From: Desulfobacterales bacterium
Lineage (GTDB): Bacteria > Desulfobacterota > Desulfobacteria > Desulfobacterales > UBA5852
Reading direction: 5' to 3'
NCBI GenBank assembly: GCA_963674755.2
Contig: CAXXVS010000001.1
Span: 800,001 to 864,000, forward strand
DNA: 64,000 nucleotides
In this document: positions 17,419 through 46,794 of the stretch, piece by piece
How the letters are laid out: each line of letters begins with the position of its first letter
Numbering within the stretch: the stretch's first letter is position 1
Made by a program: the position numbers and the translations under genes
The notes under the pieces: model-generated
Told to the model about the DNA's origin: nothing
The model's database searches: none
What the model saw: only the letters and a program-made list of their open reading frames with translations

Positions 17419-17566
17419 TCACCATGAAGGACATGAAGATCATGAAGTGTAGCCAAAAAACCAAATGACTATCCACTCGAAAATGAGGTCCAGACTGGTT
17501 TCTGATTAAATTTTTCAATTTGTCTAAGACAAATTGAAATCTTCATGACCTTCATGCTCTTCATGG
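17419..17566. repeat. periodic repeat cluster B...D-B'
   Basis: caccatgaaggacatgaagatcatgaag; ttcaatttgtctaagacaaattgaa; cttcatgaccttcatgctcttcatgg. Confidence 0.85.
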
Positions 17567-17603
17567 AAGCTTTATTATTGTTGAGGTTTTCTAAAGACGC
17601 CCT

Positions 17604-18689
17604 ATGCACACTTATGAGAACAGCTTTGTCATCAAGGCCGGGCCCAGGGCTCTGGCCCTGATCCGCGACGAGGGGCTGCGGCCGGAACGCGTCCGGGTAT
17701 TGGCCGGGGCGGCCGGCGGTCCCAAATGGCTGGTGCTCTATCACCTGGACCGCCTGTTGTTTGCACACTTTTTCCAAGTGCGCCGCAACCCGCTGCATCT
17801 GATCGGCTCCTCCATCGGTGCCTGGCGGTTTGCGGCCCTCAGCCAGAAGGATCCCCTGGCGGCCCTGGATCGTTTCAAGGACGCCTATATCCACCAGACC
17901 TACGCCACCGCGCCCACCGCGGCCGAGGTCACGGCGGAAAGCCGCAAGGTGATGGACGGCTATCTCCCCGATGAGGTGATTCCTGAGATTCTTCGTCATC
18001 CCTGGTGCCGTATCAATATGGTAACAGTGCGCTGCCGCCACTTGGTCGCCCTGGAGAACAAGCCCGGCATGGCGGTGGGGCTCGCCGGCGCCGTGATGGC
18101 CAATCTGATCGCCAGGCGGCATCTGGACCTTTTCTTTGAAAGGACCCTGTTCCATGATCCGCGGGATCTACCGCCGATAGCAGAGCGCGATACGATTCCC
18201 TTTGTACACAATCCCCTGCGTGCGGAAAATTTCAAGGATGCTCTCCTGGCATCCGGTTCCATTCCGCTCGTGATGTCCGGTGTTTCCCATATTGAGGGAG
18301 CACGCCCGGGTATCTATCGGGACGGCGGCATGATCGATTATCACATGGATTTGCCCTATCGCTTGCCCGACGACGAGATCGTGCTGATGCCCCACTATAC
18401 CGACCGCATCGTCCCCGGCTGGCTCGACAAACAACTCAGCTGGCGCAAACCCGCTGCCGATCATATGGCCAACGTGGTCATGGTGGCGCCCACAAAAGCA
18501 TTCGTCCAGCAATTGCCCAATGCCAAGATTCCGGACCGGACGGATTTCAAACTCTATTTTAAAAAAGACCGGGAGCGGTTTGAAGCCTGGGATAAAACGG
18601 TTGAAATGTGCCGTCCGCCGGCCGAGGCCTTCATGGAGCTGGTCGCCTCCGGGCGCATCAAAGAAAAGGTGCAACCGATGGAATTTTAA
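17604..18689 (+). CDS. patatin-like phospholipase family protein
   Basis: GAAGGPKW oxyanion loop, GSSIG nucleophile elbow, ASGSIP, YRDGG. Confidence 0.88.
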   Translation: MHTYENSFVIKAGPRALALIRDEGLRPERVRVLAGAAGGPKWLVLYHLDRLLFAHFFQVRRNPLHLIGSSIGAWRFAALSQKDPLAALDRFKDAYIHQTYATAPTAAEVTAESRKVMDGYLPDEVIPEILRHPWCRINMVTVRCRHLVALENKPGMAVGLAGAVMANLIARRHLDLFFERTLFHDPRDLPPIAERDTIPFVHNPLRAENFKDALLASGSIPLVMSGVSHIEGARPGIYRDGGMIDYHMDLPYRLPDDEIVLMPHYTDRIVPGWLDKQLSWRKPAADHMANVVMVAPTKAFVQQLPNAKIPDRTDFKLYFKKDRERFEAWDKTVEMCRPPAEAFMELVASGRIKEKVQPMEF

Positions 18690-18695
18690 AAGAAT

Positions 18696-18898
18696 TCACC
18701 ACGAAGAGCACGAAGAACACGAAGAGTTCAACAGCCGAAAAGCAAGAAAGACATCGATCCACCATGAAGGACATGAAGCACATGAAGGGGAGAAGTCAAA
18801 AACAAAAATTTGAAAGCAGTGATTTTGCATAATCAGTGATCCTCTGTGAGAATCTGTGACTAAAGGAGCTTCACCGCGAAGGTCACGAAAAATGCGAA
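18696..18898. repeat. periodic repeat modules A-B-C'-A upstream of GxxExxY gene
   Basis: tcaccacgaagagcacgaagaacacgaag; accatgaaggacatgaagcacatgaag; tcaccgcgaaggtcacgaaaaatgcgaa ending 4 nt before the ATG. Confidence 0.85.
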
Positions 18899-18902
18899 TG
18901 AT

Positions 18903-19289
18903 ATGAGTGATAAATATCTAAAATTCAGTGAATTATCATATCGGGTCATAGGATGTGCCATGGAGGTGCACCGTGTTCTCGGGCCGGGTCTCTTGGAATC
19001 GGCATATCAACGATGTTTAGCGTACGAATTCGATAACCGGGGGATTGCATACAAAGCAGAATATCCGCTGCCTGTATCATATAAGGCCATCGATCTTGAT
19101 TGTGGGTATCGCTTGGATTTTTTTGTTGAGGACCGCATTGTTCTGGAACTTAAAAGTGTTGAAAAGCTGTTGCCGATCCATGAAGCACAGTTATTGACCT
19201 ACATGAAACTGATTAGCGTTAAGGAAGGCTTATTGCTAAATTTCAATGCCTTACGCCTAAAAAGCGGATTGAAACACTTTGTATTATAA
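18903..19289 (+). CDS. GxxExxY protein (PD-(D/E)XK nuclease-like)
   Basis: GPGLLESAYQ (GxxExxY), YRLDFFVEDRIVLELKS (D...ExK), HEAQLLTYMK, GLLLNF; 128 aa. Confidence 0.93.
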   Translation: MSDKYLKFSELSYRVIGCAMEVHRVLGPGLLESAYQRCLAYEFDNRGIAYKAEYPLPVSYKAIDLDCGYRLDFFVEDRIVLELKSVEKLLPIHEAQLLTYMKLISVKEGLLLNFNALRLKSGLKHFVL

Positions 19290-19300
19290 ATATATTTTTT

Positions 19301-19328
19301 CTTCGTGACCTTCGTGTTCTTCGTGGTT
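19301..19328. repeat. A' module immediately downstream of GxxExxY gene
   Basis: cttcgtgaccttcgtgttcttcgtggtt, reverse complement of the upstream A modules. Confidence 0.85.
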
Positions 19329-19354
19329 CAATCTTTTTCTTAGAAGAGGCCCTT

Positions 19355-20677
19355 ATGAATCGTTCACTCGTCGCCATCGTCTGTTATGAAAAGCCCTACG
19401 ACTCCGTCCGGAAAGCGGTCGAACTGGCCGGCGGTTTGTCACACTTGAAACCTTCCGACCATGTTTTCATCAAGCCCAATATCGTTTTCTGGACTTCCAA
19501 GGCCGTGCTGCCCAAATGGGGCGTCATTACCACCTCCCGGGTGGTGGAGGACATGGTGCGCCTGCTCAAAGATCTTGGCGTTCAGCACATCACCATCGGC
19601 GAGGGGTCGGTGACGGCGAATCCCAAGGACAAGGAGACCCAATTCCACGCCTATGAGACCCTTGGCTACAATACGCTCGCCAAACGCTACGGGGTGAAAT
19701 GCGTCAATATCCTGGCGCGTCCTTTTACCAAAGTCGACCTCGGGGACAACATGACGCTGAGCTTCAGCACGGATGTGCTGGAAAGTGATGCCGTGATCGA
19801 CCTGCCGGTCTTGAAGACCCATGCCCAAACCACGGTCAGCCTGGGTATCAAAAATCTCAAAGGCACCATCAGCATCCCATCGCGCAAGCGGTGCCACAAT
19901 GCCGACCCAGCGATGCCGCTCCATCGCTGGGTGGCCCGTCTGGCCGACCCCATGCCGCCGGTGTTTACGCTCATTGACGGTATTTACAGCAACGAGCGCG
20001 GCCCGAGTTTTGACGGACGCATCCGGCGCAGCAATCTGCTGCTTGCATCAAATGACATATTCGCAGTCGATAAAGCGGCAGCCCGTGTCCTGGGTTATGA
20101 AACCGCCGATGTACCCCATCTGAAGCTTTACGCCGAACATCATCGGAGGCCGCTTGATTTGTCGGATGTGGAGATAATGGGCGAGCTTATTGAAAATGTG
20201 GCCGATTCTTACCAGTATGATTTTAAATACAATGAAGATGGCACGTTACCCCGCCCCATGGCCAAGATGGGTATCCAGGGTGTATCCTACTACAAATATG
20301 ATCTTTCCATGTGCACCTATTGTTCCGGCATCACCGGCGCCGTGCTGACGGCCATCGCCATGGCCTGGAAGGGTCAGCCCTGGGACGACGTGGAAGTCCT
20401 CACCGGCAAGCAAATGACGCCTCGCCCCGGAAAGAGGAAAACCATCCTGCTTGGCCAGTGCATGTGCAAGCGACACAAGGACAACCCCGCCATTCAGGAG
20501 GCTATTCTCGTAGACGGTTGTCCCCCCAGCCCCAAATCCATCGTGGCCGCCTTCCACAAAGCCGGCATCATGATCGATTCGAACCTTATCGAAAACTACG
20601 AGCAGCTTCCGGGATTCCTGATGGCGCGCTACAAAGACAAGCCGGAGTTCGAAGAGGGCTTTTTCAAAATCGAGTGA
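19355..20677 (+). CDS. DUF362 domain protein with Cys-rich C-terminus (probable Fe-S)
   Basis: VFIKPN, TIGEGS, PVLKTH.QT.VSLGIKNLKG, LIDGIY; C-terminal CTYC, GQCMC, GCPP. Confidence 0.8.
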   Translation: MNRSLVAIVCYEKPYDSVRKAVELAGGLSHLKPSDHVFIKPNIVFWTSKAVLPKWGVITTSRVVEDMVRLLKDLGVQHITIGEGSVTANPKDKETQFHAYETLGYNTLAKRYGVKCVNILARPFTKVDLGDNMTLSFSTDVLESDAVIDLPVLKTHAQTTVSLGIKNLKGTISIPSRKRCHNADPAMPLHRWVARLADPMPPVFTLIDGIYSNERGPSFDGRIRRSNLLLASNDIFAVDKAAARVLGYETADVPHLKLYAEHHRRPLDLSDVEIMGELIENVADSYQYDFKYNEDGTLPRPMAKMGIQGVSYYKYDLSMCTYCSGITGAVLTAIAMAWKGQPWDDVEVLTGKQMTPRPGKRKTILLGQCMCKRHKDNPAIQEAILVDGCPPSPKSIVAAFHKAGIMIDSNLIENYEQLPGFLMARYKDKPEFEEGFFKIE

Positions 20678-20684
20678 GAGATTG

Positions 20685-20953
20685 AACCACGAAGATCACG
20701 AAGGACGCGAAGAAAGCCAGAATGGGGCACGGATGAACACAGATCTTGGACTAAAAGCAATTTACCATGAAGGCCATGAAGAAATCAATTTGTCGGTGAC
20801 AAATTGATTGAAAGTAAAACAAACGATAAATTGTCGCAAATGACAGCCTGTCATCCACCGACCACCCACCACCCCCAACCGACGGTTTCCCCCAACTCAA
20901 CAAACCCAACGAACCCAATGAACTCAACAAACCCAATAAACTCAATAAACTCA
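20685..20953. repeat. periodic modules A-C-B-D followed by C-rich 7-mer-like and 9-mer (aac[ct]caa) tandem arrays
   Basis: aaccacgaagatcacgaaggacgcgaag; gcacggatgaacacagat; aatcaatttgtcggtgacaaattgatt; aactcaacaaacccaacgaacccaatgaactcaacaaacccaataaactcaataaactca. Confidence 0.85.
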
Positions 20954-20954
20954 C

Positions 20955-22228
20955 CTACACCTTGGGCGCCTGAAACAGACGATGGGAGGGCACGGCAAAA
21001 ATATCCGGATCACCGAGAGGTTTGATCTCGCTTCCAGAATAAACGACCATCCCGCCGCACCAGCTCTGCCCCAGTTTTTCGGCGACCATTCTTAGCGGAC
21101 GAAAGTCCTTGGGGCTCTGCGTGGCTCGGGATTTGATTTCGATGCCGATGATACCGGAAGAGGTTTCCAGCAGAAGATCCACTTCGTTTCCGGATCGTGT
21201 CCGATAAAAATAGATGTTTACATCGCGTTGGCAAGTGCGGATCCATTTGACGATTTCAGCCACCACCATGGTTTCGTACAACTGGCCTGACAAAGCGCCG
21301 CGAAAACCCGTCAAATGGCGCCATATGCCGATATCCAACCAGTAGAGTTTGGGCGTTTTAACCACTGAGCTTGTCAAATTGCGGTAATAGGGCTGCAGCA
21401 AAATCGTTTGGTATGAGAGCTTGAGGTATTCCATATAGCGACGGGCGGTGTCGACGCTTATACCGCTGTCGCGCGCTATCTCGGAATAGTTCAGCAATTG
21501 GGCGGATCGTAGTGCCGAGAGCTGCTGAAATTGACGAAACGGCATGAGATCGTCCAGCTTGGCAAGATCGGCCAGGTCTCTTTCCAGGTAGGTGTATTCA
21601 TAATTTTTCAGCCACAGCCAGCGGTCCTCGTCGGAAAGATTAAGCAATGCAGGCATGCCGCCCCATTTGATGATGTGCTGTTCAGCTGCCTGGCAGCGAT
21701 GAGCGGCAGGCCCTATGAGCATTGGTGCCGTATCCGCTAATGCATTGGCGACAGATGCGCCTGTTAGCATACTGTCCAGCAGCGGCGGCCTTCCTTCGGC
21801 GCAGGACGGGTTTAATTCACATTGCATCAACGGCCAAAGCTCGTAAAAAAGGCTCTCCCGGCGAGGGACTCTCTGATTTGTTTTAGCAACAGGATTTGGC
21901 TCGAGCCGGTGAGTACGGTAAAAGTGATGCCGCCGTCGTCATATGCGTATTTAATTTTTTCGAAAACCGAAGGCGCTTTCTGGGCCTCGTCGATTACGGC
22001 AGTGCCAACCGTTTTGGACCATGCAAAGGTACTGAGCTCCCGAACGGTATCCCTATTTTCCGGTGCATCCAGATTGATGTAGGTGAGGTCGGGATAAAGA
22101 TCCTTGACCAGCGTGGTTTTGCCGGTTTGACGCGCGCCTGTTAGCACCACGATTCGTCGGTGGTTGGCATCTGGTAACCGACTCGACATCATGCGATTAA
22201 CATGTAAATTAGCAGACATAAACATCAA
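20955..22228 (-). pseudogene. AAA+ ATPase with DUF4143 C-terminal domain, split by a 1-nt frameshift
   Basis: ORF1 has GARQTGKT, IDEAQ, LTGSS, ESLAGR; ORF2 has GGMP, KTPKLY..DIG, YRT.SG.EVD..IEIK; adding one T to the T6 run (+ strand A21845-21850) restores RAFFYELWPLMQ. Confidence 0.85.
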
Positions 22229-22501
22229 ATAAGCTGTATATCATACGATTGTCAACGAAAATTTACAGTAAAAATCTATAGAGGCAGGGAAAGATAGGCT
22301 GTAGGAAAAAGCGGTGGGTAGTAGGTCGGAGGTCGTGGGTTGAAACAGAAAAAGACAGAGGGTTTGTGGTAAATTCACTTGCCCTGATCAATCACGGATT
22401 GATAAGTTGATTTCCAGTTGCTACATCGGTGAACATCCGTGCAAATCAGTGGCGATTTATTGGGTTTTCTGGCCGAAACGGCCATCGGAAAGGAAGCGGA
22501 G

Positions 22502-23569
22502 ATGAAACTACTGGTAACCGGGGGGGCGGGATTCATCGGCACAAATTTCGTCCGTACTGTCTTTGAAAAAAGGCCTGGGTGGGAGGTAGTAAACTTGGAC
22601 CTTCTGACGTATGCCGGCAATCCGAAAAACCTGCTGGATATCGAAAAAGAGCATCCCGAACAGTATCGCTTCGTCCAGGGGGATATCAAAGACAGCGAAT
22701 TGCTGAAGCGCCTGTTTGAAGCAGAAGGGTTTGATGCTGTTGTCCATTTTGCGGCCGAATCCCATGTCGATCGGTCTATTTATGGACCTGGCGCATTTAT
22801 CGAAACCAACATTGTCGGTACCTATCAACTCCTGGAGGCCGCCCGGGGATACTGGACATCCGGAAAGGCACCGGAGGGCTTCAGGTTTCTGCATATCTCC
22901 ACGGACGAGGTTTACGGCAGCCTTGGACATGAAGGATATTTCACGGAAAGGACCCCCTACGACCCTTCGAGCCCCTATTCGGCGTCCAAGGCCGGCTCGG
23001 ATCATCTGGCCAAGGCGTATCACCGGACTTACGGTTTGCCCACGGTCGTTACAAATTGTTCCAACAATTACGGGCCCTACCAATTCCCCGAAAAGCTCAT
23101 ACCCCTGATGATCCTGAACATTCAGGAGGAAAAACCCCTGCCGGTATACGGAGACGGCAAAAATGTGCGCGACTGGCTGTTCGTGCTTGATCACTGCGAC
23201 GCGTTGCTGACGGTTCTAACGGAGGGGAAAATCGGTGAGACTTACAACATCGGCGGCGGGGCGGAGATGCAGAATATCGATGTGGTGAACCTGCTCTGCG
23301 ATTTGCTCGATGAAAAGCTGGGACGGCAGGGGGAGACCTCGAGCTCCCGCCTGATCCATTTCGTCAAAGACCGGCCCGGCCATGACAGGCGCTATGCCAT
23401 CGATTCCACCAAAATCCGCACGGAGCTGGGCTGGGCCCCTAAACACGATTTCAAGGCGGCCCTCGCCAAAACCGTGGACTGGTATTTCGACAACCAGGAT
23501 TGGGTCGAAAGCATCCGGACCGGTGAATATTTGACATGGATCGATCGGAACTACGGTGGGAGAGCCTGA
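22502..23569 (+). CDS. rfbB: dTDP-glucose 4,6-dehydratase
   Basis: [68 protein letters not shown]. Confidence 0.96.
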
Positions 23570-23645
23570 CGTGGCTCACCAATGCATCCGTGTTGTGAGT
23601 GGGAGATTCAATGCCAGGCTTTGAGGTGATGCGGGGCTGTGCCTT

Positions 23646-23845
23646 AAGGGTTCAAGGGCCCGAGGGGCCGAGGCGTCAAGGGAGGGGTTCCCTTAGCGCC
23701 TGATTTGTATCATCGGCGCCAAAGTAACTTGGGTTTGACTTTCAATCAATTTGTCGCCGACAAATTGATTTCTCCATGGACTTCATGCCCCTCATGGTGA
23801 ACAGCTTTATTCTTTAATCAGTGTCTATCCGTGCCCATCTGTGTC
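23646..23845. repeat. periodic modules I (aagggttca-type), D, B', C'
   Basis: aagggttcaagggcccgaggggccgagg; aatcaatttgtcgccgacaaattgatt; cttcatgcccctcatggtga; aatcagtgtctatccgtgcccatctgtg. Confidence 0.8.
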
Positions 23846-23964
23846 CCATTTGGTCTTCTTCCTGGTAATGCTTTTTTACGTTTATCCGTTTTTATCAGCC
23901 TTGGCCTGCATCCCATCGGTTAACCTTCTATGGCCGGTGGTCCCTATGACGGCGATTCTTTCCA

Positions 23965-24525
23965 TCACGGCTCCTCGTAGGGCGGCAAATCCTCATCCGA
24001 AAGGTCCGCAAGAAGAGGATAGTCCGCATCCTTTTTCGATAGAATCGGGACGCCTTCAGGCCAAGCAATGGCTATCTCCGGGTCGGAATAAAGGATGCCT
24101 TTTTCCGTGGCGGGATTGTAGTAGTCCGAACACTTGTACATAAACAGGGCGGTTTCGCTGAACACAAAGAAGCCGTGGGCGAACCCTGCCGGGATGAACA
24201 GCTGGTGCTTGTTGGCGGAAGATAAAACCTGGTTGACGCTCTCCCCGAAGGTGGGGGAGCCCCGACGGATATCGACGGCCACATCTAGCACTTCCCCTTC
24301 CAATACTTGCACAAGCTTGGCCTGGGGGTGGGGCCACTGGTAGTGCAGCCCTCTCAGGACATTTCTTTGGGAATTAGACAGGTTGTCCTGCACAAAGTCA
24401 GCCGCAATGCCGCTTTCGTGATAGCGGCTTCCGTGGTAGGTTTCCAGAAAGAAACCGCGCTCGTCGCCGAATATGGCCGGTTCAATCAACAGAACATCCG
24501 GAATTTTAGTAGGGATCACTTTCAT
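23965..24525 (-). CDS. rfbC: dTDP-4-dehydrorhamnose 3,5-epimerase
   Basis: FGDERGFFLE, FVQDN.S.S..NVLRGLHYQ, DIRRGSPTFG, IPAGFAHGF; true start MKVIPT at 24525. Confidence 0.95.
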   Translation of the reverse strand: MKVIPTKIPDVLLIEPAIFGDERGFFLETYHGSRYHESGIAADFVQDNLSNSQRNVLRGLHYQWPHPQAKLVQVLEGEVLDVAVDIRRGSPTFGESVNQVLSSANKHQLFIPAGFAHGFFVFSETALFMYKCSDYYNPATEKGILYSDPEIAIAWPEGVPILSKKDADYPLLADLSDEDLPPYEEP

Positions 24526-24549
24526 GTGGCGCTCCTGGTCGTCCGAAAA

Positions 24550-24955
24550 AAGGGTCCAAGGATCCAAGGGGTCGAGGGAAAAAGAAAAGGCGATTATCCG
24601 AAAAGGACAGGATTGGCTAAGTGCAACAGCTTGAACTAGGAAGGGAATGAAGGAAACCGAATAGGACGCTGATGAACGCAGATGTGCGCGGATGTTAAAC
24701 CAGAAGCCATTTACCATGAAGATCATGAAGGACATGAAGGTAAAGAAACTGCGGCTGCAGGCTATTGGTTTTGGGGGGTTCCGCGATAGCGGAACAACCC
24801 TGTGTGCATCCGTGTTTATCTGTGGCGAAACGGTTTTTTTGACCACGAAGGCCACAAAGGGATTCATCTGCTCTTGATGGGTTTTCTTCGTGTTCTTCGT
24901 GGTAAATTCTTGTCGACGGGAGCATTTCTTTGACCCCTCGGATCCACGAACCCTT
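24550..24955. repeat. nested cluster I-[C-B-H-C']-[A-A']-I'
   Basis: agggtccaaggatccaaggggtcgaggg ... tgacccctcggatccacgaaccctt encloses C/C' and A/A' pairs. Confidence 0.8.
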
Positions 24956-25039
24956 AAATAATCCATCTCACAGTACATTAGCGGAATAGATTCTGGCGCA
25001 GCCTTCACAATAGATGAGATGCTTTCGAGAGGAGGCTTT

Positions 25040-25921
25040 TTATGGCATCCCGTTGGCCAACTCATACAGATACTTCCCATAATCGTTTTTCATGAAGGGT
25101 CCCGCCAGCTCAAGGAGCCGGGTCCGGTCGATGAAGCCCTTGCGAAAGGCCACCTCCTCGATGCATCCGATTTTTTGGCCCTGGCGTTTCTGGATGGTCT
25201 CGATGAAATTGGCCGCGTCCAGCAGCGACTCGTGGGTTCCGGCATCCAGCCAGGCGTAGCCGCGCCCCATGGTTTCCACGCGCAGCTCTCCCAGTTTGAG
25301 ATAGGCGTCGATCACTTCGGTGATTTCCAGCTCGCCGCGCGCCGAAGGCTTGACTCCGGCGGCAATCTCGGCCACGCGGTTGTCGAAGAAATACAGACCT
25401 GGCACGGCATAGTTGGATTTGGGCTGTTGCGGTTTTTCCTCGATGCTGAGCACTTTGCCTTCCTGGTCGAATTCGACCACGCCGTAGCGCTCCGGGTCCC
25501 TTACCCAATAGCCGAAAACCAGGCCGCCGGTGTCCATTTGGGCTGCGCGTTCCAGAATTGCGGAAAAGCCGTATCCAAAGAAAATGTTGTCCCCCAGAAT
25601 CAGGCAGGCATTGTCGTCGCCGATGTGCTCGCGGCCGATGATAAAGGCCTGGGCGAGCCCTTCCGGTCGGGGTTGCTCGGCATAGGAAATCTGCATGCCG
25701 AACCTGGATCCGTCGCCAAAAAGGGCCTGGTATTTGGGTTTGTCCTCGGGGGTGGAAATGATCAGGATGTCACGGATGCCGGCCAGCATGAGCACCGACA
25801 GGGGATAATAGATCATGGGTTTGTCGTAGACCGGCAAGAGCTGCTTGCAGACCACGCTCGTAATCGGAAACAAGCGGGTACCGGACCCGCCTGCCAGGAT
25901 AATTCCTTTGTATTTCTTCAT
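25040..25921 (-). CDS. rfbA: glucose-1-phosphate thymidylyltransferase
   Basis: [61 protein letters not shown]. Confidence 0.97.
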
Positions 25922-25949: not shown

Positions 25950-26107
25950 CGCCACTGATAAACACAGATCATTATAGATCAGACTGTAGGCGATTAGCCT
26001 ATAGGCTGAAAGCAAATCAAATAATCTGGAGTTGTTATGCCCCCAATGAATCCGATAAATTAAATAACCTTGCGGTTTTTCTACAGCCTACAAGCCTCAA
26101 AAGCTTA
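25950..26107. repeat. periodic modules C, H and H'
   Basis: gccactgataaacacagat; agactgtaggcgattagcctataggctgaaag; ctacagcctacaagcct. Confidence 0.65.
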
Positions 26108-26121: not shown

Positions 26122-26475
26122 TCACTCCGTGGTCAACCCCACAGGTGGTATGGGCGGTGTATTATCCCCTGGCGTGAACACGACCGGGGCGCAAGGCTGG
26201 CTTTCGCCCACTGCGTTGTAAGCCGATACTGAGAGGTAATAGGTCACCCCCTCTGACAATGGCAAGTTATTCAAATCATATTGCAAAATGTTGCCAACAT
26301 CAGTCGAGTTGGACCGGTCGGTAGAATTGGTACCCCAATAAACCTTATACCCGTCCACGGTCCCGGAACTGGTATCCCAGACGAGCGTTTCCGCTGCAGT
26401 TGAAGCAGGGGTGAAAAAAAAGGCTGCCAAAGCCCATATCAAGCCAACGGCCATCATTCCTAGGTTTTTTCCCAT
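26122..26475 (-). CDS. small secreted single fibronectin type III domain protein
   Basis: Signal peptide; TLVWD...VDGYKVYWG...L.EGVTYYLSVSAYN.VGES; tail DNTPPIPPVGLTTE. Confidence 0.85.
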   Translation of the reverse strand: MGKNLGMMAVGLIWALAAFFFTPASTAAETLVWDTSSGTVDGYKVYWGTNSTDRSNSTDVGNILQYDLNNLPLSEGVTYYLSVSAYNAVGESQPCAPVVFTPGDNTPPIPPVGLTTE

Positions 26476-26626
26476 GCCCGTTCCCTTCAGAAAACCAAAA
26501 TTTTTTTAATCGGATTGGTGAAATTAGGATTACCCTCAGCGGCAAACGGCGGTATTTGATTATCATTTGTATACACTGATTTCCATAATGTTGACAACCG
26601 ACAATCTGATCAGAAAAGCGGAGCGG

Positions 26627-26832
26627 GACGCAAATGAACACAGATTGTCACGGGTCAGGCTGTAGGGGATTGGGCTACAGGCTGAAGGGTAAGCAGAAGA
26701 CTTATAGGACAGTGGGTTTTTCCCTTTCAGCTTGATACTTCGGTTTTCCTTCGTGCCTTTTCGTGTCCTTCGCGGTGAAATTATTTCGATCTTGATTTTA
26801 CCCCTTCAAGTTCTTCATGCTCTTCATGGTAA
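26627..26832. repeat. periodic modules C, H, A', B'
   Basis: acgcaaatgaacacagat; caggctgtagg...gctacaggctgaagg; cttcgtgccttttcgtgtccttcgcggtgaa; cttcatgctcttcatggtaa. Confidence 0.75.
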
Positions 26833-26853
26833 ATTTTGTGTATTACTGAGCAT

Positions 26854-26885
26854 AAAAAAAGGCGACAGTCGCAAACTGTCGCCTT
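26854..26885 (-). terminator. intrinsic terminator after the second FN3 gene
   Basis: Stem aaggcgacagt/actgtcgcctt followed by a T-run on the - strand. Confidence 0.75.
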
Positions 26886-26962
26886 AGAGTCATAGTTATG
26901 CTCAGCCTATTTCGTAATTGCTGAGCAAATATAACCGCTTAGATTTATGTCAATTTCTATTG

Positions 26963-27304
26963 TTATTGCGCCTCCAAACCGACCGGTGGCTGCGGTGGCG
27001 TCGTGTCAGCCGGGGTATAGGCGACAGGGGCGCAGGGGGCGCTCTCACCAGCGGTATTGTAGGCCGAAACGCAGAAGTAATACTGGACATTTTCAGATAA
27101 CGGCAACGAATCGATGGAATATTGGGTAACATCCCCGACATTGACGGATTCAGATGGATTGGTCGCACTGGTGCCATAGTAAACATTGTATCCATCCACC
27201 GTTCCAGTGCTTGCATCCCAGACCAAGGTCGCCGCCGAGCCAACCGTAATTGTGGTAAAAACCGTGATCAACATCAAGATGATTATTTTGGTGTATATTT
27301 TCAT
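26963..27304 (-). CDS. small secreted single FN3 domain protein (paralog of 26122-26475)
   Basis: Signal peptide; TLVWDASTGTVDGYNVYYG...YYFCVSAYNTAGESAPCAPV; tail DTTPPQPPVGLEAQ; aggagg RBS. Confidence 0.85.
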   Translation of the reverse strand: MKIYTKIIILMLITVFTTITVGSAATLVWDASTGTVDGYNVYYGTSATNPSESVNVGDVTQYSIDSLPLSENVQYYFCVSAYNTAGESAPCAPVAYTPADTTPPQPPVGLEAQ

Positions 27305-27360
27305 ACTATCCTCCTGCAATATTCGTAAGATTTTGTATCAGATTTCTAAATTGGCGAATC

Positions 27361-29802
27361 CTATTTCCACAGGAATACAGCCAGTGATTGCTCGCTGGTA
27401 TTTCCCGCGTCATCAATTGCCGTAACAGTGATGGTGTTCCACCAGCGGCTAAGTTCAATGCCGCTGGCTTCCCAGTTGTCGGTTCCAACACATGTACCGC
27501 TTTCTCCACGGCTGTTGCGCCATATTACTTTAGCAAGACCGACATCGTCAGAGGCATTGCCTCCGATTGTCACAGTAGCTGTCCTTGAGAAATAGGACTT
27601 TTTGGTTGTCGGTGACGTTATTTGCACTGTCGGCTTAGTCGTATCGGTTGCATTATAGATAACCGTTAGCACATCGGTTGATTTGTTGCCGGAACTGTCC
27701 ACAGCTGTCACGGTTATCGTGTTGGTACCCAATGCAAGATTGATGCCTGGAATTGACCAACTGAGGGTGCCGTTGGCGATCCCGCCAGCACCTGTCGAAC
27801 TGCTCCAGGTAACTTGCTTGAGGCTTTGGTCATCATCAGCGGTGCCAGACAAGCTGGCTTGGCTTGAGTTCGTTGTAAAGGTTCCGTTATCGGTAGGCGT
27901 GGTGATCGTGATAACGGGGGCCTGGGTGTCGGGTGCCGTAAAAGATACGGCAATAGTATCGGAGGCCTGATTGCCGCTGGCATCGACTGCTGTCACAGTG
28001 ATGATGTTTTGGCCTTCAGCCAGAGCGATGCCGTCGATGGACCAGTTGGTCGTGCCCGAAGCCGTTCCATTGCCACCGGTTGAGCAGGTCCAGGTGACCT
28101 GTTGTAGGCTATTGTTATCACTGGCTGTACCTGCCAGCGAGATCGTTGCCGTGTTCGTTGAGTGGGAATCCGCCGATACCGGTGACGTAATAGCCACTTC
28201 AGGGTTGGTGGTGTCAGGGGCCGTGTACGTTACGGTCAATGTGTCCGTGCCTTCATTGCCGGCGGCATCCACAGCCGTTACGGTGATCGTGTTGACGCCC
28301 TCCTGTAAAGCGATCGCATTTATTGCCCAATTTGTCGTACCGGTGGCGGTGCCGCTTTGACCGGCGGAACTTGCCCACCGAACTTCGGTGAGCCCGCTGT
28401 CATCCTGGGCCGATCCGGAAATGGCAAGGGTTGCCTTGTCGGTCGGGTAGCTGCCGCTAGTGGTCGGGCTGAGAATGGACACGATGGGCGCCGTTTCATC
28501 GGGAGAGGTGGCGGCGACCCCGAAGATATCGACTTCAGTAATGCTGTTCCAATCATTGTTAAGGTTGCCGTAGCCGACGATGCGAACGTAGCGACCAACT
28601 GCATTGGAGATTTGGTAGCTTTCCTGCTGCAGCGTTGTCCCACTGCTTTGCCCTTTGAAAACACTGCTCCATGAACTCGCATTGTTGGATACAAAGATTT
28701 CGAACTCAGAATTGACGTTTATTGTATCGGCCCAAGCGTAGGCGATCAGAATTTTAGAAAGGTCAAAGGAGGCCCCTAGATCATATTGAATCCACTGACC
28801 GTCACCATATGCAGACCATCTGGTCGACAGGTCATTGTCAATGGTATTCGCAGCGGTGTTGCCGTCGTCGCTGCTAGAGGTTACAGAGACCACGGGCAGA
28901 CCCTCGACAACCGCAAAATAGCTGATCGTAATGGCATCGGTAGCCTGATTACCGCTGGCATCGGTGGCTGTCACGGTGATCGTGTTGACGCCCTCCTGTA
29001 AAGCGATCGCATTTATTGTCCAATCTGTCGTACCGGTGGCGGTGCCGCTTTGACCGGTTGAGCAGGTCCAGGTGACCTGTTGTAGGCTATTGTTATCACT
29101 GGCTGTACCTGCCAGCGAGATCGTTGCCGTGTTCGTTGAGTGGGAATCCGCCGATACCGGTGACGTAATAGCCACTTCAGGGTTGGTGGTGTCAGGGGCC
29201 GTGTACGTTACGGTCAATGTGTCCGTGCCTTCATTGCCGGCGGCATCCACAGCCGTTACGGTGATGACATTTTGTCCTTCGGTAAGCTCGATGGCTCCCG
29301 TGGCCCAGGAGTCGGTTCCGGAGGCCGTGCCGCTGGCGCCGCTGGAACTCTGCCAGGTGATCTGCTGGAGATCGTGATCGTCAGTGGCCGAACCGGAAAG
29401 GGTCACCGCCGGATCTAAAGAGGTGTAGGTATCCGCCTCCACTGGTGATAAAATTGATACACTCGGGGCGATATTATCTAGGGTTGAAAACTGTTTGCTG
29501 ATCTCCGAGGAGAATCCGCTTTCGTTGCCTGCATTATCCAAAGCGGAAACAGCAAAATAGTAGGTTTCGCCTTCTACCAAGCCTTGGATTTCATATAGGT
29601 TGACGTTCCCAACAGGAATGGGCGGCCCATAGGATCGAGGTTGGGTGCCAAAGTATACATTATATCCCTGTAAATCGAGCTCGGTGTTCGGCTGCCAAGA
29701 CAAGCGAACCGTAGCGGCAGTAGAGATTTGCGGTATGAAAAGGATAAGTGCGGTTGGAAAAATGAGCAACCAGAGACTGATTTTACGTGTTATATCTTTC
29801 AT
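27361..29802 (-). CDS. large secreted protein: N-terminal FN3, multiple Ig-like repeats, internal F5/8 type C (discoidin/CBM32-like) domain
   Basis: VRLSWQPN..DLQGYNVYFG; repeated D...P.V.I.SP...G.N.ITVTA.D..GN; SSDDGN....IDNDLSTRWS..G.GQWIQYDLG...RYVRI. Confidence 0.85.
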   Translation of the reverse strand: MKDITRKISLWLLIFPTALILFIPQISTAATVRLSWQPNTELDLQGYNVYFGTQPRSYGPPIPVGNVNLYEIQGLVEGETYYFAVSALDNAGNESGFSSEISKQFSTLDNIAPSVSILSPVEADTYTSLDPAVTLSGSATDDHDLQQITWQSSSGASGTASGTDSWATGAIELTEGQNVITVTAVDAAGNEGTDTLTVTYTAPDTTNPEVAITSPVSADSHSTNTATISLAGTASDNNSLQQVTWTCSTGQSGTATGTTDWTINAIALQEGVNTITVTATDASGNQATDAITISYFAVVEGLPVVSVTSSSDDGNTAANTIDNDLSTRWSAYGDGQWIQYDLGASFDLSKILIAYAWADTINVNSEFEIFVSNNASSWSSVFKGQSSGTTLQQESYQISNAVGRYVRIVGYGNLNNDWNSITEVDIFGVAATSPDETAPIVSILSPTTSGSYPTDKATLAISGSAQDDSGLTEVRWASSAGQSGTATGTTNWAINAIALQEGVNTITVTAVDAAGNEGTDTLTVTYTAPDTTNPEVAITSPVSADSHSTNTATISLAGTASDNNSLQQVTWTCSTGGNGTASGTTNWSIDGIALAEGQNIITVTAVDASGNQASDTIAVSFTAPDTQAPVITITTPTDNGTFTTNSSQASLSGTADDDQSLKQVTWSSSTGAGGIANGTLSWSIPGINLALGTNTITVTAVDSSGNKSTDVLTVIYNATDTTKPTVQITSPTTKKSYFSRTATVTIGGNASDDVGLAKVIWRNSRGESGTCVGTDNWEASGIELSRWWNTITVTAIDDAGNTSEQSLAVFLWK

Positions 29803-30261: not shown

Positions 30262-31050
30262 TCAGTTAAGGGTTTCGGTTGCTGCAGCTGGTGAAGCCGG
30301 CGCGGTGTTAAATTCGTTCTTTGACAAAGTGTGCTTTCTGAGCCGGTAGCTATGGCCCTTGATGTTGACCACCCGACAGTGGTGCAGCAGCCGGTCGAGG
30401 ATCGCGGTGGCAATGACCTGATCGCCGAACAGCTCCTGCCAGTCCCCGAAGCTCTTGTTGGAGGTGATGATGGTGGAGCTTCGTTCGTAGCGGTAGCTGA
30501 TGAACTGGAAGAACAGGTAGGCTTCCTTGCTGTCGATGGGCAGATAGCCCACCTCATCGACCACCACCAGACTGGAGGTCAGATAGGCCTTGTGCCGGGA
30601 CTGGGACTGCTCCTTAAGTTTTCGCATCAGGGCGTCCATGGTCATGAAATAGACCTTGAAGCCGTGATGACAGGCCTTGGTGGCCAATGCGATCGCCAGA
30701 TGGGTTTTGCCCACCCCCGGAGGCCCCAGGAAGATCACGTTCTCGTGCTTGGGGATGAAGTCCAGATCGAAGAGCGCCATGACGTCTTTCTTATTGAGAT
30801 CCGGGTGGAACGAGAAGTCGTAGGCATCGATGGTTTTGGCCGCCGGAAGGCCCGCGGTCTTCATGGCGGTCTCCACCCGCCGCTTTTCCTTGGCGCCGAC
30901 TTCCTCCTCCAGCAGGTGATCCAGGAAAGCCATATATGAGCTCTTGTCGGTTTCGGCCTGCAAAAGGACAGTGTCGAGCACGGCGGCAGCCTGGGTGAGC
31001 TTTAGCCGCTGAAGATTGTCCCGAAGGCGGTCTGTAATCAGTTGATCCAT
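30262..31050 (-). CDS. istB: IS21 helper ATPase
   Basis: GPPGVGKTHLA, VDEVGY, IITSNK.F.DW, AILDRLLHH, G.SYRL. Confidence 0.95.
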   Translation of the reverse strand: MDQLITDRLRDNLQRLKLTQAAAVLDTVLLQAETDKSSYMAFLDHLLEEEVGAKEKRRVETAMKTAGLPAAKTIDAYDFSFHPDLNKKDVMALFDLDFIPKHENVIFLGPPGVGKTHLAIALATKACHHGFKVYFMTMDALMRKLKEQSQSRHKAYLTSSLVVVDEVGYLPIDSKEAYLFFQFISYRYERSSTIITSNKSFGDWQELFGDQVIATAILDRLLHHCRVVNIKGHSYRLRKHTLSKNEFNTAPASPAAATETLN

Positions 31051-32315
31051 ACCCCACCTCCTTTCTGGGCCGCCTGTTCGTAGACGGACAGCGGCCTGTA
31101 GAGCACTTGGGGAAACAGGCTGCCGTTGACCAGACCCCGCGTGGCCTTGCCCTTGCGGCGGCCGTAGGGTGGTGTCTTCGGCGGCTGTTCGCGGCGCAGC
31201 TTGAGGATCTCCTCGATGATGGCCGGATCGGTGATCATCCGCCCCTTCTCCGGACTCTCGGCATGGGTGATCAGCAGCCGGTCATCGTCGTAAATGCGGA
31301 TGACGCCGTCCTTGATCCTCAGCAGCACTTTTTTGCCGACGGCCTCCGGCGGCACCTGGTAACGGCTGGCGTTGTAGGAGATCAGACAGTCTTTGTAGAC
31401 CTTCCGGTAGACCTTGATGGCGGTGTCGTAGTCTCTGGGCACCGGGCCGAGACTGCGGACTTCCTGCTGCCAGCGCAAGTCAACGAGCTGGCGGTGGGTA
31501 CGGTGCTGGCGCCGGTTGGCGGTCTCCGACAGCCAGTGGAGCAGATCCGCATTGGCCTTCTCCAAACTCTCGAACGCATAGCCCCGCCAGAAGGCCTCCC
31601 GAATGTAATCGATGGGGCGTTCCACCTTGCCTTTGGTCCAGGGGCTATAGGGGGCGCACAGCACCGGCTTGAAGCCGCAGTGGTCAGCGAAATCGGTGAA
31701 CTCGACATTGATCCGCGTTCGCCCATCACGGCGGCCGGCGAACACATGGCGCATGTTGTCATAGAGCAGTTCGAAAGGCACGCCCCCGAGATACTTGAAG
31801 GCCCTCAGGTGGGCGTCCATAAACGCCGCCAGAGTGCAGCGGGTGACGAACTCGGCGTACATGGCCCGGGAAAATCCGAGAACGAGAAGGAACAGATACA
31901 CGGTGATGTCGGCGACACCGGCAGCGGCGATCTTAAAGTCGGCCCAGTCCATCTGGCCTTGCAGGCCAGGAACCGTCTCGAATCGCAGGAAGGCTTGACG
32001 ACGATTGCGGGCTTTGACGGCCCGCACATAGGTTTTGACCGTGTCGTAGCCCCCGGAATAGCCGAGGTCTTTGATTTTCTGGAAGATCCATGTACCGCGG
32101 TAATTGTCCTGCTGGAGCCAGTCATCGATCATCTGGTGGTAGGGGGAAAGGATCGATTCCTTGCGCTTGCGTTTACAGTATCGGGGCATGGTGGGATCTG
32201 CCAGGTACTTGGTGACGGTGTTGCGGTGAATGCCAAGCTTCCTGGCAATGGCGCGCATCGTGAAGCCTTGGCGGTGATAGGAATGAATGTCCATGAATGC
32301 CTCCCTGGTGATCAT
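31038..32315 (-). CDS. istA: IS21 DDE transposase
   Basis: HTH IARKLGIHRNTV, RFET.PG.Q.Q.DW, GGVP..LLYDNM, P..KGKVER. Confidence 0.95.
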   Translation of the reverse strand: MITREAFMDIHSYHRQGFTMRAIARKLGIHRNTVTKYLADPTMPRYCKRKRKESILSPYHQMIDDWLQQDNYRGTWIFQKIKDLGYSGGYDTVKTYVRAVKARNRRQAFLRFETVPGLQGQMDWADFKIAAAGVADITVYLFLLVLGFSRAMYAEFVTRCTLAAFMDAHLRAFKYLGGVPFELLYDNMRHVFAGRRDGRTRINVEFTDFADHCGFKPVLCAPYSPWTKGKVERPIDYIREAFWRGYAFESLEKANADLLHWLSETANRRQHRTHRQLVDLRWQQEVRSLGPVPRDYDTAIKVYRKVYKDCLISYNASRYQVPPEAVGKKVLLRIKDGVIRIYDDDRLLITHAESPEKGRMITDPAIIEEILKLRREQPPKTPPYGRRKGKATRGLVNGSLFPQVLYRPLSVYEQAAQKGGGVWIN

Positions 32316-43634: not shown

Positions 43635-45539
43635 TTATGGCAGATACTCATGAACTTCGAACTCAGTAATGCTGTTCCAACTATTGTTATTGTTCCCATA
43701 TCCGGTTATCCTTACATACCTTACCGGTATTTGCGAAATTTCATACGTCTCTAACGTATCGGTTCCACCACTATTTCCTCTATAGTGTTGAGTCCACGTT
43801 GTTCTATCCACTGAGGTCTCTAACCCAAAGTCTGCAATTTGTGTCTGTCCAATAAACCATGCAATTTGAACCTCAGATAGAACTTTATTAGATCCTAAAT
43901 CGTATTCTATCCACTCCCCTATACCTTCAGCCGACCATCTGGTAGTGAAATCACCATCAATGGTATTTTCCGGAATATTGCCATCGTCTGAACTAGCTGT
44001 TATCGACACAGGGTTAAGCTTAACAACAGGGCTAGGTGTAACAACAGGGCTAGGTGTAACAACAGGGTTAAGCACTACACGAGCACTAGGTGGAGATGTA
44101 GGAGGTACAATTTCTGAGGATCCACTGTCTGAGGGGTCGCTTGGCTGCCCACTGACATATTCAAATGCCCCAATATCCCAATTTCCGTCAGCACCACGTA
44201 CGTTACCGAACATATCGACGTTGTATGGAGATGATAGTACTATAGTTGTGTCACCTCCCAATCCAGTAGCAAGGCGATAATTATCATTGGATGAGTCTGC
44301 AAACGGGTCCCCTGTGGTTACGATACTGTGTGTCGGGGGTTGTGACGGGGCATATTGATCGCTCCAATAACCATAATCTATAGTTACATTCGTACTAACA
44401 AAACCAGTCGTACTGTTGTTCCACCACAAGTTATTATAGGCTACGTTCCCGCTTGCTCTCCCGGGAAAATAAAGTCCGCCACCGTAATAACCAGATGTCA
44501 TATTAGCGATTGTGTTGTTATATATTTTCCAATTAACAGCCCAGGTGGCGTTTCCTGCATCGTCATGTACCGCAGCTAAACCGCTTGCTCCCGTCTGAGA
44601 ATAACTTGAGTTGAAGTAAAAAAGGTTCCCGTATATTTCCCAATTTTCACAAGCTCCGTAACTTTCAACGCCACCTATATTTGATGTTCCGTTGGCATTT
44701 TCAAACAAATTATAACGGACAGTGTAATTATCGTCACCACTCATCGACCAAAGTTCTGCGTGATATGCTGACGTGCTTTTATTATTTGAAATACAATTAT
44801 ATTCGACTATCCATCCATCATTTCCCCTGGTGAATAGAGGGCACCCATACGGATCATAAATATAGCAATATGCAATATGCCAATCGTCATTCCGGATTGT
44901 GCCTAAATTCCATATTAAGTGGCCATATCCATTATTTGTATCAACTCCCCATTTTGGGACTGCATGGATTTGCAAGTGGTAAAGATTTACATTTGTTACC
45001 GGGCCCACTCCATAGGGAACATTAATACACCTATTGGCAACACCTGAAGTCCACGGTGCTCTGATCTCAATCCCAAAACCTTCACGAAATGAATCGGGGA
45101 AATTGTTTTCATCGGGACCGCCACCAGTTTGCCCGTCCCAAGTGTAGTAGCCTGTGTAGAAGGTGTATAAGCCAGTGAAAACTGCCTTACCATCGCCATA
45201 ACTGATGCTCCATCCAGTGTCAGTACCGTGATCGTCTTCAGTTGCTTTTACAATATAGATATAATCTGTACCACTGGTTGGGTCGTCAAATTGATAAGAA
45301 CCATATTCACCGTCAGCGATCATATAAATCGTATTTCTTTTAAGAGTCGAGGGGAGATCATCCAAAGCGTTTGTCCATGAAGTCCCATCTCCGATTCCAC
45401 CATCCCTTATGTAAACTATATCCCTGCCGCTGGCAGTATAGTTTTCGGCATATGCATTACCAGCTAAACATATCATGAGAAAAAAGGCGCATAATAAAGG
45501 AGTTAATGCATATACATTTTTTCTTATTCTAAAAAACAT
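43635..45539 (-). CDS. secreted parallel beta-helix (pectin lyase-like) protein with Pro/Ser linker and C-terminal F5/8 type C domain
   Basis: Signal peptide; GDGTSWTNA, Asn-rich I.YN/IYNNT/YNNL repeats, D.FGN.R...WDIGAFEY; discoidin ASSDDGN...TRWS...RYVRI; aggagg RBS before ATG 45539. Confidence 0.75.
   Translation of the reverse strand: MFFRIRKNVYALTPLLCAFFLMICLAGNAYAENYTASGRDIVYIRDGGIGDGTSWTNALDDLPSTLKRNTIYMIADGEYGSYQFDDPTSGTDYIYIVKATEDDHGTDTGWSISYGDGKAVFTGLYTFYTGYYTWDGQTGGGPDENNFPDSFREGFGIEIRAPWTSGVANRCINVPYGVGPVTNVNLYHLQIHAVPKWGVDTNNGYGHLIWNLGTIRNDDWHIAYCYIYDPYGCPLFTRGNDGWIVEYNCISNNKSTSAYHAELWSMSGDDNYTVRYNLFENANGTSNIGGVESYGACENWEIYGNLFYFNSSYSQTGASGLAAVHDDAGNATWAVNWKIYNNTIANMTSGYYGGGLYFPGRASGNVAYNNLWWNNSTTGFVSTNVTIDYGYWSDQYAPSQPPTHSIVTTGDPFADSSNDNYRLATGLGGDTTIVLSSPYNVDMFGNVRGADGNWDIGAFEYVSGQPSDPSDSGSSEIVPPTSPPSARVVLNPVVTPSPVVTPSPVVKLNPVSITASSDDGNIPENTIDGDFTTRWSAEGIGEWIEYDLGSNKVLSEVQIAWFIGQTQIADFGLETSVDRTTWTQHYRGNSGGTDTLETYEISQIPVRYVRITGYGNNNNSWNSITEFEVHEYLP
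44008..44073 (-). repeat. 18-bp in-frame tandem repeat in linker (LNPVV/TPSPVV)
   Basis: taacaacagggctaggtg twice plus variants. Confidence 0.8.
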
Positions 45540-45600
45540 CGTATCCTCCTGGTAGTTAAAATGATACAAACGGTAATACATTTTTTTCGGTCCATGCATA

Positions 45601-45616
45601 TGCAACATCCGGGCCA
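45601..45616 (-). promoter_or_regulatory. sigma54 promoter
   Basis: TGGCCCGGATGTTGCA on - strand (GG-N10-GC), about 60 nt upstream of ATG 45539. Confidence 0.7.
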
Positions 45617-46041
45617 TTTTAGCAAACAATATTTTATAGTGTAATCAACGTGTAACAGAATTTAAAATACTATCAAAGTATGATGAAGTGCAAAATTTTA
45701 GACAGATTCCAACTTTTTCACATTTAATAAACTTTTTCTCTTTGGATAGCATCAGCCCTATCAAGGCAGGCTTCATACTAAATCAACTTTATGGGGTGAC
45801 GATGTTTGTTGGATGAAACGAGGTAGTTATCTATGTTTTTATTTCTATAGTAAATCCCTATCGCTATCTACTATGTAAATTTATTCACAATTCCATAGTT
45901 TTTATGGAATCTATTACCACATCTTGTGGTCTGCTCAAAACCCCATCGCAATAATTTCAAGCATTTGCACTTTTGCACAATTCTTGCACTTCTAACTAGC
46001 TCTCGCCCTATATTGGCTAAATAGACAATTTGGAGGTTTCA

Positions 46042-46794
46042 ATGAGGCGCATCAGCATGTTCGCACTGGCATTCTCGATATTGTTCGTTCCATCTGTATT
46101 CGCTTTCCCGGTACAATTGATAGACAATAGCTATTATTACGATATCTATTCTATAGCTTATTCCTCAGATGGAGAAATGACGGAAGGAAGATTATCTGGA
46201 ACCTCCAACCAAGATTCAATTTCTAAAGATTTTATCCTGGCTCAAGGTGACCTATCCAGTTATGTTGGCGGTAGTATAACAGCAGATCCATTTTCGTTGT
46301 CATGTATTTCAGGGGGTCATGCTTATAGCGATGCATATGAATTGTTAGGCTCCGGGTACGCTTTCGTATCAAGTTCCACCACATTCAAACCCTTAGAAAC
46401 GACAACTTCAATTAATTTTGACACTTATTATTATGTTCCTTGGGCGGCCTCTTATTTTATTCTAACAGACATCACAGAAGGTACTGAACTTTTTAACGGT
46501 TCAGTATTTCTTTGGCTGCAAGATTATATATCCCAATATATAGGTGATTCATGGAAGGGTTCGACAACCAATGTTCTTCAATTGGATTTCGACATATTGG
46601 ATGCCACGCTTTATGATGACCATTTATACAAACTTGAAATAGGTGCGCTCGCACAATCAGGGGGTGATTTTTCATCAGCACATCTCACCGCCGATATTCA
46701 GGTTGTCCCCGTACCTGAGCCATCAACGCTGTTATTGTTGAGTCTTGCATTGCCCGTCGCTTGGATAAGAAAAAACAGATTTTCAAAAAACTAA
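46042..46794 (+). CDS. PEP-CTERM sorting-signal protein
   Basis: Signal peptide; C-terminal VPVPEPSTLLLLSLALPVAWIRKNR. Confidence 0.9.
   Translation: MRRISMFALAFSILFVPSVFAFPVQLIDNSYYYDIYSIAYSSDGEMTEGRLSGTSNQDSISKDFILAQGDLSSYVGGSITADPFSLSCISGGHAYSDAYELLGSGYAFVSSSTTFKPLETTTSINFDTYYYVPWAASYFILTDITEGTELFNGSVFLWLQDYISQYIGDSWKGSTTNVLQLDFDILDATLYDDHLYKLEIGALAQSGGDFSSAHLTADIQVVPVPEPSTLLLLSLALPVAWIRKNRFSKN

What the first reader, a model, noticed from the sequence alone, without database searches (positions are those of the whole stretch)
26122..29802. FN3 subunits lacking strand A but carrying it as a C-terminal tail: candidate donor-strand filament with a lectin-bearing terminal subunit
Seen: after the signal peptide both small paralogs begin at TLVWD and end with DNTPPIPPVGLTTE or DTTPPQPPVGLEAQ; the large upstream protein also begins at TVRLSW but continues into Ig-like repeats and a discoidin domain and has no such tail. 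Established: in FN3 domains the xLxW segment is strand B and PxxPxxL opens strand A, which in tandem arrays follows strand G of the previous domain. Inference: the short linker would point the tail into the next subunit, allowing head-to-tail polymerisation, with the large protein accepting a strand and capping the fibre as an adhesin. The sigma54 promoter, strong RBS and own terminator, and the position beside an EPS locus, fit a biofilm matrix fibre.
Basis: partly seen in the sequence, partly recalled or inferred. Interest (0 to 1): 0.75.

Follow-up and report, generated by a model that had tools for sequence, protein, structure and literature searches.

The report
Split fibronectin domains that may chain
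Two small exported bacterial proteins lack the first strand of a fibronectin-type fold but carry that strand as a tail; the tail very probably plugs into the large neighbouring protein and may also plug into copies of itself to build a thin fibre, which has not been shown by experiment.

Summary
Both small genes encode a signal peptide, FN3 strands B-G and a 14-residue strand-A tail. The tail is present in 110 of 112 homologues, and 104 stop three residues after its Leu. The monomer model leaves the tail projecting like the next domain's strand A, not folded back. The small-to-large joint is well supported: 8 of 29 related loci fuse the two, with the tail as the large domain's own strand A, and 11 of 29 keep them as neighbours. 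Self-polymerisation is only about even odds. For it: in one 97%-complete genome the small protein is the only acceptor found. Against it: the tail's invariant Asp matches the large protein's loop type, and small-type domains stay strand-A-less inside fusions. No complex could be folded. Corrections: the discoidin domain is mid-protein and in 4 of 11 orthologues; the terminator excludes s1; tip versus base is open. Ten paper searches found no FN3 donor-strand filament. This scan has noted split-FN3 tags, and subunits with both halves, before on other DNA (unchecked notes). Verdict: new variant of donor-strand assembly; interest 0.62.

The parts
27361..29802 (-). L: 813-aa exported acceptor-only protein: signal peptide, strand-A-less FN3, six bacterial Ig-like repeats, discoidin insert; no tail, no anchor motif seen
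   Evidence: (NCBIfam Ca_tandemer 68.2 bits, cut-off 50)
29479..29715 (-). L's N-terminal strand-A-less FN3 domain with a D-type F-G loop: the inferred acceptor of the tail
   Evidence: fusions; Asp/Asp rule
28513..28905 (-). Discoidin (F5/8 type C) domain; a variable passenger, present in 4 of 11 orthologues
27364..27645 (-). Last Ig-like repeat of L with conserved aromatic/basic residues (YFSR, RWWN, VFxWK); candidate surface- or polysaccharide-binding end (inference)
   Evidence: orthologues were selected with this region
26963..27304 (-). s2: 113-aa exported subunit, FN3 strands B-G (27008-27232) plus strand-A tail
26966..27007 (-). s2 strand-A tail, 14 residues
26122..26475 (-). s1: 117-aa paralogue, strands B-G (26167-26391) plus tail; lies downstream of the terminator-like hairpin
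26125..26166 (-). s1 strand-A tail, 14 residues
29850..29865 (-). sigma54-like -24/-12 site about 50 bases upstream of L
   Evidence: consensus recalled, function not tested
26859..26885 (-). terminator-like hairpin after s2
   Evidence: count in the region not above shuffles

Best explanation
s1 and s2 are FN3 domains cut one strand out of register. After export and signal-peptide removal (inferred from sequence) each folds into six strands with an open strand-A groove, and its C-terminal 14 residues project away from the domain (model). The tail completes another molecule's FN3 domain in trans (inferred, about 0.85). One acceptor is L's first domain (inferred from fusions, about 0.8). The small subunits also accept one another's tails, giving a thin beads-on-a-string chain that looks like a non-covalent tandem FN3 array, needs no usher, and stops when L or the second acceptor-only protein of the genome takes the last tail (inferred, about 0.5). 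Subunits with passenger domains behind the tail would decorate the chain. The likely role is an extensible linker or adhesive fibre in the exopolysaccharide/PEP-CTERM surface layer (inferred from gene context).
For: Tail conserved and cut at a fixed length. Monomer model: pLDDT 87.3, six strands, tail without secondary structure, last blocks 80 and 65. The whole model aligns across ranges that run from one domain into the next in tandem FN3 structures: 9ba4_A model 1-89 to 829-934, Z 8.8, rmsd 2.7, 87 aligned; 1qr4_B 1-88 to 16-107, Z 9.2, rmsd 3.0, 83 aligned. Spacing from the F-G loop Ser to PxxPxxL is 15 in 107 of 107 parsed members, inside the 13-15 mode of tandem arrays, so no extra linker exists for folding back. 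Of 29 best non-self loci in the order, 8 are s-L fusions and 11 have a free small gene beside an acceptor-only gene; one family holds both states (G313 fused; G118, G164, G376 split). In G059 (97% complete, 2 contigs) the small protein is the only strand-A-less FN3 found by three searches; G081 (91%) and G242 (76%) give the same. The both-halves design recurs with the other loop type (G634, L380) and in phage contigs (L303, L301). Groove-facing residues L3, W5, V55, A57, V70, Y/F72 are kept (mapping to the groove is recalled from the FN3 fold). Tail position 88 is mostly Ala (79 of 107), as in complete N-type domains, against Val/Ile in 98 of 105 other tails. No usher gene in the genome.
Against: An Asp four residues before PxxPxxL goes with a D-type F-G loop in 77 of 88 complete domains, and its absence with an N-type loop in 977 of 1027 (repeats and kin are not independent). 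The tail has the Asp, L has the D-type loop, the small domain has the N-type loop. Small-type domains are strand-A-less even when internal or in tandem within fusions, for example L093, L132, P0158, P0265, so they may be stable without a donor. In G111, G231 and G313 (97-99% complete) a fusion is present but no free subunit was found. Several genomes hold equal numbers of small and acceptor-only genes (2:2 here). Fused tails also often have Ala/Gly at 88, which weakens that hint. G207, in G059's genus, has an L-type acceptor elsewhere, so G059 may simply have lost it. No membrane or wall anchor was seen on either acceptor in this genome.
Confidence: 0.5

Rival explanations
1. One-to-one adaptor. 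The tail binds only D-type acceptors such as L, rebuilding the fused s-L protein non-covalently; the small domain's own groove is closed or unused, and the domain is a stand-alone binding module. Paralogues and passenger-bearing variants give mix-and-match caps, not a fibre.
For: Asp/Asp rule; small-type domains never carry strand A in the fusions inspected, with one partial exception, P0294, whose strand A lacks the Asp; an aromatic residue at position 72 is nearly universal here (106 of 107) but occurs in 7 of 224 complete domains, as if it covered the groove; fusion-only genomes; equal gene numbers.
Against: Three genomes with a small gene and no other acceptor found; 11 of 88 Asp-bearing strands do sit on N-type domains, and the 7 aromatic-72 domains do carry strand A; G269 has two small genes and one acceptor.
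Confidence: 0.3
2. Closed species: reciprocal strand-swapped dimers or small rings, or a monomer that takes its own tail in reverse orientation, as FimA can.
For: FimA forms self-complemented monomers with the strand reversed (PMC6615685, abstract). An FN3 scaffold with N-terminal strand swapping is in the PDB (4m6a, title).
Against: The monomer model does not fold the tail back; the tail is not palindromic; fixed short spacing; fusions keep the forward register.
Confidence: 0.1
3. No strand docking. The tail is a sorting or secretion signal, or a leftover of gene fission, and strand-A-less domains work alone.
For: Strand-A-less FN3 heads are very common without a nearby tail (most of the 66 loci; 192 of 401 genomes have some match). 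About 105 distinct tails end unrelated proteins, as a sorting tag would.
Against: The tail is residue for residue the strand A of L-type domains in fusions, it stays in place when passenger domains follow it (P0214, P0271, P0275), and tail-only cargo genes sit beside anchored strand-A-less domains (L019, L176, L183).
Confidence: 0.1

Closest known systems
Type V pili of Bacteroidia (FimA, Mfa1; PMC13655056, abstract and introduction read)
   Same: C-terminal donor strand inserted into a neighbour's groove; tip subunits lack the donor strand, as L does.
   Different: Type V pilins are lipoproteins of two transthyretin-like domains activated by protease cleavage. Here one 89-residue FN3 domain, no lipobox cysteine seen, groove open as made, Desulfobacterota.
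Chaperone-usher pili (Fim, Pap; PMC6615685 abstract, PMC11821415 passages)
   Same: Incomplete Ig-like sandwich completed by a neighbour's strand; acceptor-only adhesin at one end.
   Different: The donor is an N-terminal extension there and a C-terminal strand A here; no usher gene in this genome.
Usher-free donor-strand fibres: TasA, TLP-1 (PMC11494351, passages), haloarchaeal tafi (PMC11821415, passages), CPR Pam pili (PMC13278184, passages)
   Same: Exported subunits joined by a donor strand, with separate end subunits.
   Different: In the passages read none is built from FN3 subunits (Pam's anchor PamR is described as RbmA/FnIII-like); TLP-1, TasA and tafi donate an N-terminal strand.
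Tandem FN3 arrays and FN3 strand swapping (contactin, tenascin, PTPRF structures; PMC7140400 passages; 4m6a title)
   Same: Same fold and the same G-to-A spacing; FN3 domains are known to exchange strands.
   Different: There the chain is covalent and swapping is incidental or force-driven; here the gene boundary itself lies between strands A and B.

Membership tests
FN3 domain (Pfam PF00041) | Profile match over the cut-off and FN3 fold | tested here: met
   30.6, 33.8 and 26 bits against cut-off 25; best structural match Z 9.9, rmsd 1.6, 72 aligned
FN3 domain (Pfam PF00041) | Seven strands with strand A at the N-terminus | tested here: not met
   Six strands in the model; no PxxPxxL before strand B in 111 parsed homologues
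Donor-strand-complemented filament (general) | Incomplete sandwich plus a free strand matching the missing one | tested here: met
Donor-strand-complemented filament (general) | Subunit accepts its own kind of strand (homopolymer) | tested here: inconclusive
   For. Against. Covariation too shallow
Donor-strand-complemented filament (general) | Filament observed | not testable with these tools
   Needs EM or biochemistry
Type V pilus | C-terminal donor strand; end subunit lacks it | tested here: met
   by sequence only
Type V pilus | Lipoprotein precursor with two transthyretin-like domains | tested here: not met
   Single FN3 domain; no cysteine at the signal-peptide end in s1, s2 or L (read by eye; no signal-peptide predictor was run)
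Type V pilus | Protease-triggered strand exchange | not tested
   No search for a processing protease was made
Chaperone-usher pilus | N-terminal donor extension | tested here: not met
   Donor is C-terminal
Chaperone-usher pilus | Usher gene | tested here: not met
   PF00577: 0 matches in the 97%-complete genome, control positive in E. coli

The most novel reading that the evidence does not exclude
An 89-residue, usher-free FN3 subunit self-assembles head to tail into a matrix fibre of Desulfobacterota, and it is the polymerising member of a wider split-FN3 plug-and-socket system in which tail-only cargo, socket-only anchors or caps, and both-halves extenders combine across bacteria and phages.
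Probability: 0.45. Interest if true: 0.82.

Novelty: new variant of a known kind. Interest (0 to 1): 0.62.

Why it matters
Donor-strand assembly is known from pili, but my ten searches found no case built from FN3, one of the commonest extracellular domains. If the chain forms, it is among the smallest self-assembling pilus-like subunits, a candidate matrix fibre of sediment Desulfobacterales beside their exopolysaccharide genes, and a natural tag-and-catcher pair useful for protein engineering. Even under the one-to-one rival, the split domain is a docking mechanism hidden under the routine label 'fibronectin type III domain protein'. The test is cheap: one 10-kDa protein with and without 14 residues.

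Tried and rejected
Foldseek against the PDB gave no match at E <= 0.001, and the listed rows were FN3 domains, none titled as a filament; this does not exclude one. Tail-to-body covariation: effective depth about 36, signals at 88 with 1, 53, 71, 72 cannot be told from the s1/s2 split; inconclusive. Search for tail-only genes in this genome by regex found only s1 and s2 among plausible genes; divergent tails could be missed. DNA-pattern search for tails in G111, G231, G313, G059 and G000 gave counts at control level; 9 candidates were fetched and none was a real gene end. The representative search was dominated by tandem arrays. Sequencing runs: no RNA holder listed. Phage records: only weak minor-tail-protein hits. 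ESM Atlas: nearest clusters are 91-119-aa phage proteins at 0.93-0.96, a lead only. NCBIfam has no family for s1 or s2. Simple circular permutation was rejected. Rows left out of alignment A1: P0001, P0010, P0013, P0024, P0028, P0029, P0046, P0111, P0112 (duplicates, odd starts, fragment, unrelated); P0223 and P0255 were added. Outputs were cut; I cite only what was shown, and L312 stayed unresolved.
Full report
Observation. s1 (117 aa) and s2 (113 aa from the ATG at 27304) have a signal-peptide-like start, FN3 strands B-G and a 14-residue tail; L (813 aa) has the same kind of head and no tail. Pfam fn3 passes its cut-off in all three and starts at profile positions 17, 9 and 12. These three and one more acceptor-only protein (C2:1033181-1034899, also beside dTDP-rhamnose genes) are the only FN3 matches in the genome, and all four lack strand A. 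The strand naming (xLxW = B, PxxPxxL = A) is recalled; it agrees with the alignment to PTPRF, where the tail falls on the start of the next domain.

Family. A homologue search gave 112 proteins from 115 candidates. The tail is in 110 of 112, 104 end three residues after its Leu, and none of 111 parsed has a strand A in front. D76, P80 and P83 are invariant in 107 rows. The closest named relatives are Desulfobacteraceae/Desulfobacterales. At E <= 1e-17, 11 of 401 phylum genomes match; one outside the order (G634) has two small subunits.

Where the tail points. AlphaFold2 gave six strands and a tail without secondary structure. Structural search aligned the whole model across ranges that run into the following domain of tandem FN3 proteins (only first and last aligned residues are given, so the crossing is read from the ranges). 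The spacing before the tail, 15 residues in 107 of 107, equals that of tandem arrays.

The small-to-large joint. Among the 29 best non-self loci from 401 genomes of the order, 8 are single genes in which the small domain, the tail and an L-type domain follow one another, so the tail is literally L's strand A; 11 have a free small gene beside an acceptor-only gene; 5 have a small gene with no acceptor in the 3-kb locus; 1 is unresolved; 4 are other forms. One family holds both fused and split states. Some of these genomes are the same as loci, and kin are not independent. In 1115 distinct complete FN3 domains, an Asp four residues before PxxPxxL goes with a D-type F-G loop in 77 of 88 cases. 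The tail has that Asp and L has that loop. I put this joint at about 0.8.

The small-to-small joint. This is what makes a fibre, and it is not settled. For it: in G059 (97% complete, 2 contigs) three searches found no strand-A-less FN3 other than the small protein; its two other fn3 hits cover profile positions 3-81 and 4-82. G081 (91%) and G242 (76%) look the same. The both-halves design recurs with a D-type head and Asp tail in G634, with passenger domains between head and tail (L097, L134), and in phage contigs such as L303 and L301. Against it: the small domain has the N-type loop; small-type domains remain strand-A-less inside fusions, even in tandem; three near-complete genomes have a fusion and no free subunit found; G059's genus mate has an L-type gene. 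Position 72 is aromatic in 106 of 107 members but in 7 of 224 complete domains, which could mean a covered groove, though those 7 do hold a strand A. Covariation was inconclusive. No oligomer model could be made.

The large protein. L has six Ig-like repeats that pass the NCBIfam calcium-stabilised adhesin repeat cut-off. The discoidin domain is mid-protein and in 4 of 11 orthologues (one unrelated hit, P0385, dropped from the 12). The same domain also appears behind the tail of a small subunit (P0214) and at the end of the 664-aa gene at 43635-45629, so it is a mobile passenger. The last repeat keeps a patch of aromatic and basic residues in all 11, but they were selected with that region. 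Tip or base is open: type V tip pilins lack the donor strand, which fits a tip (PMC13655056, introduction), but in other lineages socket-only proteins carry membrane or wall anchors (L019, L176, L183). I saw no anchor on either acceptor here.

Context. The genes lie between dTDP-rhamnose genes and, past an IS21 element, an exopolysaccharide cluster with exosortase, EpsI and a PEP-CTERM gene. Relatives sit beside polysaccharide export genes or PilB/PilC-like genes, read by eye from ORF lists. The genome has six secretin matches, one 12 kb beyond the window, and no usher; export through a secretin is a guess. The sigma54-like site recurs upstream of 4 of 4 L orthologues inspected. The hairpin follows s2, so s1 is outside that unit.

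Wider system. Earlier notes of this scan describe tail-only cargo with anchored sockets, and both-halves subunits in phages and bacteria; they are unchecked AI notes, not support. I had reached the tag-and-socket idea from loci L019 and L051 before reading them. None matched this sequence or place.

Literature. Ten full-text searches found no bacterial FN3 donor-strand filament or split-FN3 tag. I read passages of PMC13278184, PMC11494351, PMC11821415 and PMC7140400, the abstract of PMC6615685, and the abstract and introduction of PMC13655056; others only as listings. Subscription journals are largely missing and no supplements were opened, so a published description may exist.

Verdict. A real, conserved, out-of-register FN3 module. 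Completion in trans is likely (0.85), the joint with L is likely (0.8), the fibre is even odds (0.5), with a one-to-one adaptor as the main rival (0.3). It works like a donor-strand pilus but fails membership of type V and chaperone-usher pili. New variant of a known kind; interest 0.62.

Noticed in passing
window 30262-32315 (-): IS21-type element (IstB and integrase-family transposase) lies between the exopolysaccharide cluster and L, about 400 bases upstream of the sigma54-like site.
   Followed up: no
G000:C2:1033181-1034899 (-): Second acceptor-only protein with different passenger repeats, downstream of a second dTDP-rhamnose cluster and next to a transposase; a TGGC-N7-CTGCA site lies upstream.
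   Followed up: partly
window 43635-45629 (-): 664-aa exported protein ending in a discoidin domain like L's, inside the exopolysaccharide cluster, next to a PEP-CTERM gene at 46030-46794.
   Followed up: partly
window 25958-26019 and 26634-26695: A 62-base repeat at 74% identity flanks s1 on both sides; it may mark how s1 was inserted or duplicated.
   Followed up: no
window 17423-25091: Short 9-base-spaced CACGAAG/CATGAAG runs recur in intergenic gaps, for example 17423-17441, 18700-18781, 24715-24733; nature unknown.
   Followed up: no
s2 residues C54 and C67 (mature numbering): Cys67 is in 97 and Cys54 in 81 of 107 rows; they lie on neighbouring strands F and G and may form a disulfide. 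s1 has only Cys67.
   Followed up: no
L019:3942-9590; L176; L183; L051: Tail-only cargo genes beside strand-A-less domains with a membrane segment or peptidoglycan-binding domain.
   Followed up: partly
P0138: Protein with six tandem strand-A-less FN3 domains on flexible linkers, scaffoldin-like.
   Followed up: no
L297, L299, L300-L303, L313, L317; L098, L378, L381, L385: Phage-like contigs and prophage-like regions encode small exported strand-A-less FN3 proteins with tails of several kinds; two add a short amphipathic-looking end after the tail.
   Followed up: partly
G058:C19:16219-16536: A further small-subunit copy with one internal TAG between the two intact copies; probably a pseudogene.
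   Followed up: no
L159:4949-5914, L240: A protein that starts like a DNA-binding regulator ends in the same tail; possibly recombination between tail repeats.
   Followed up: no
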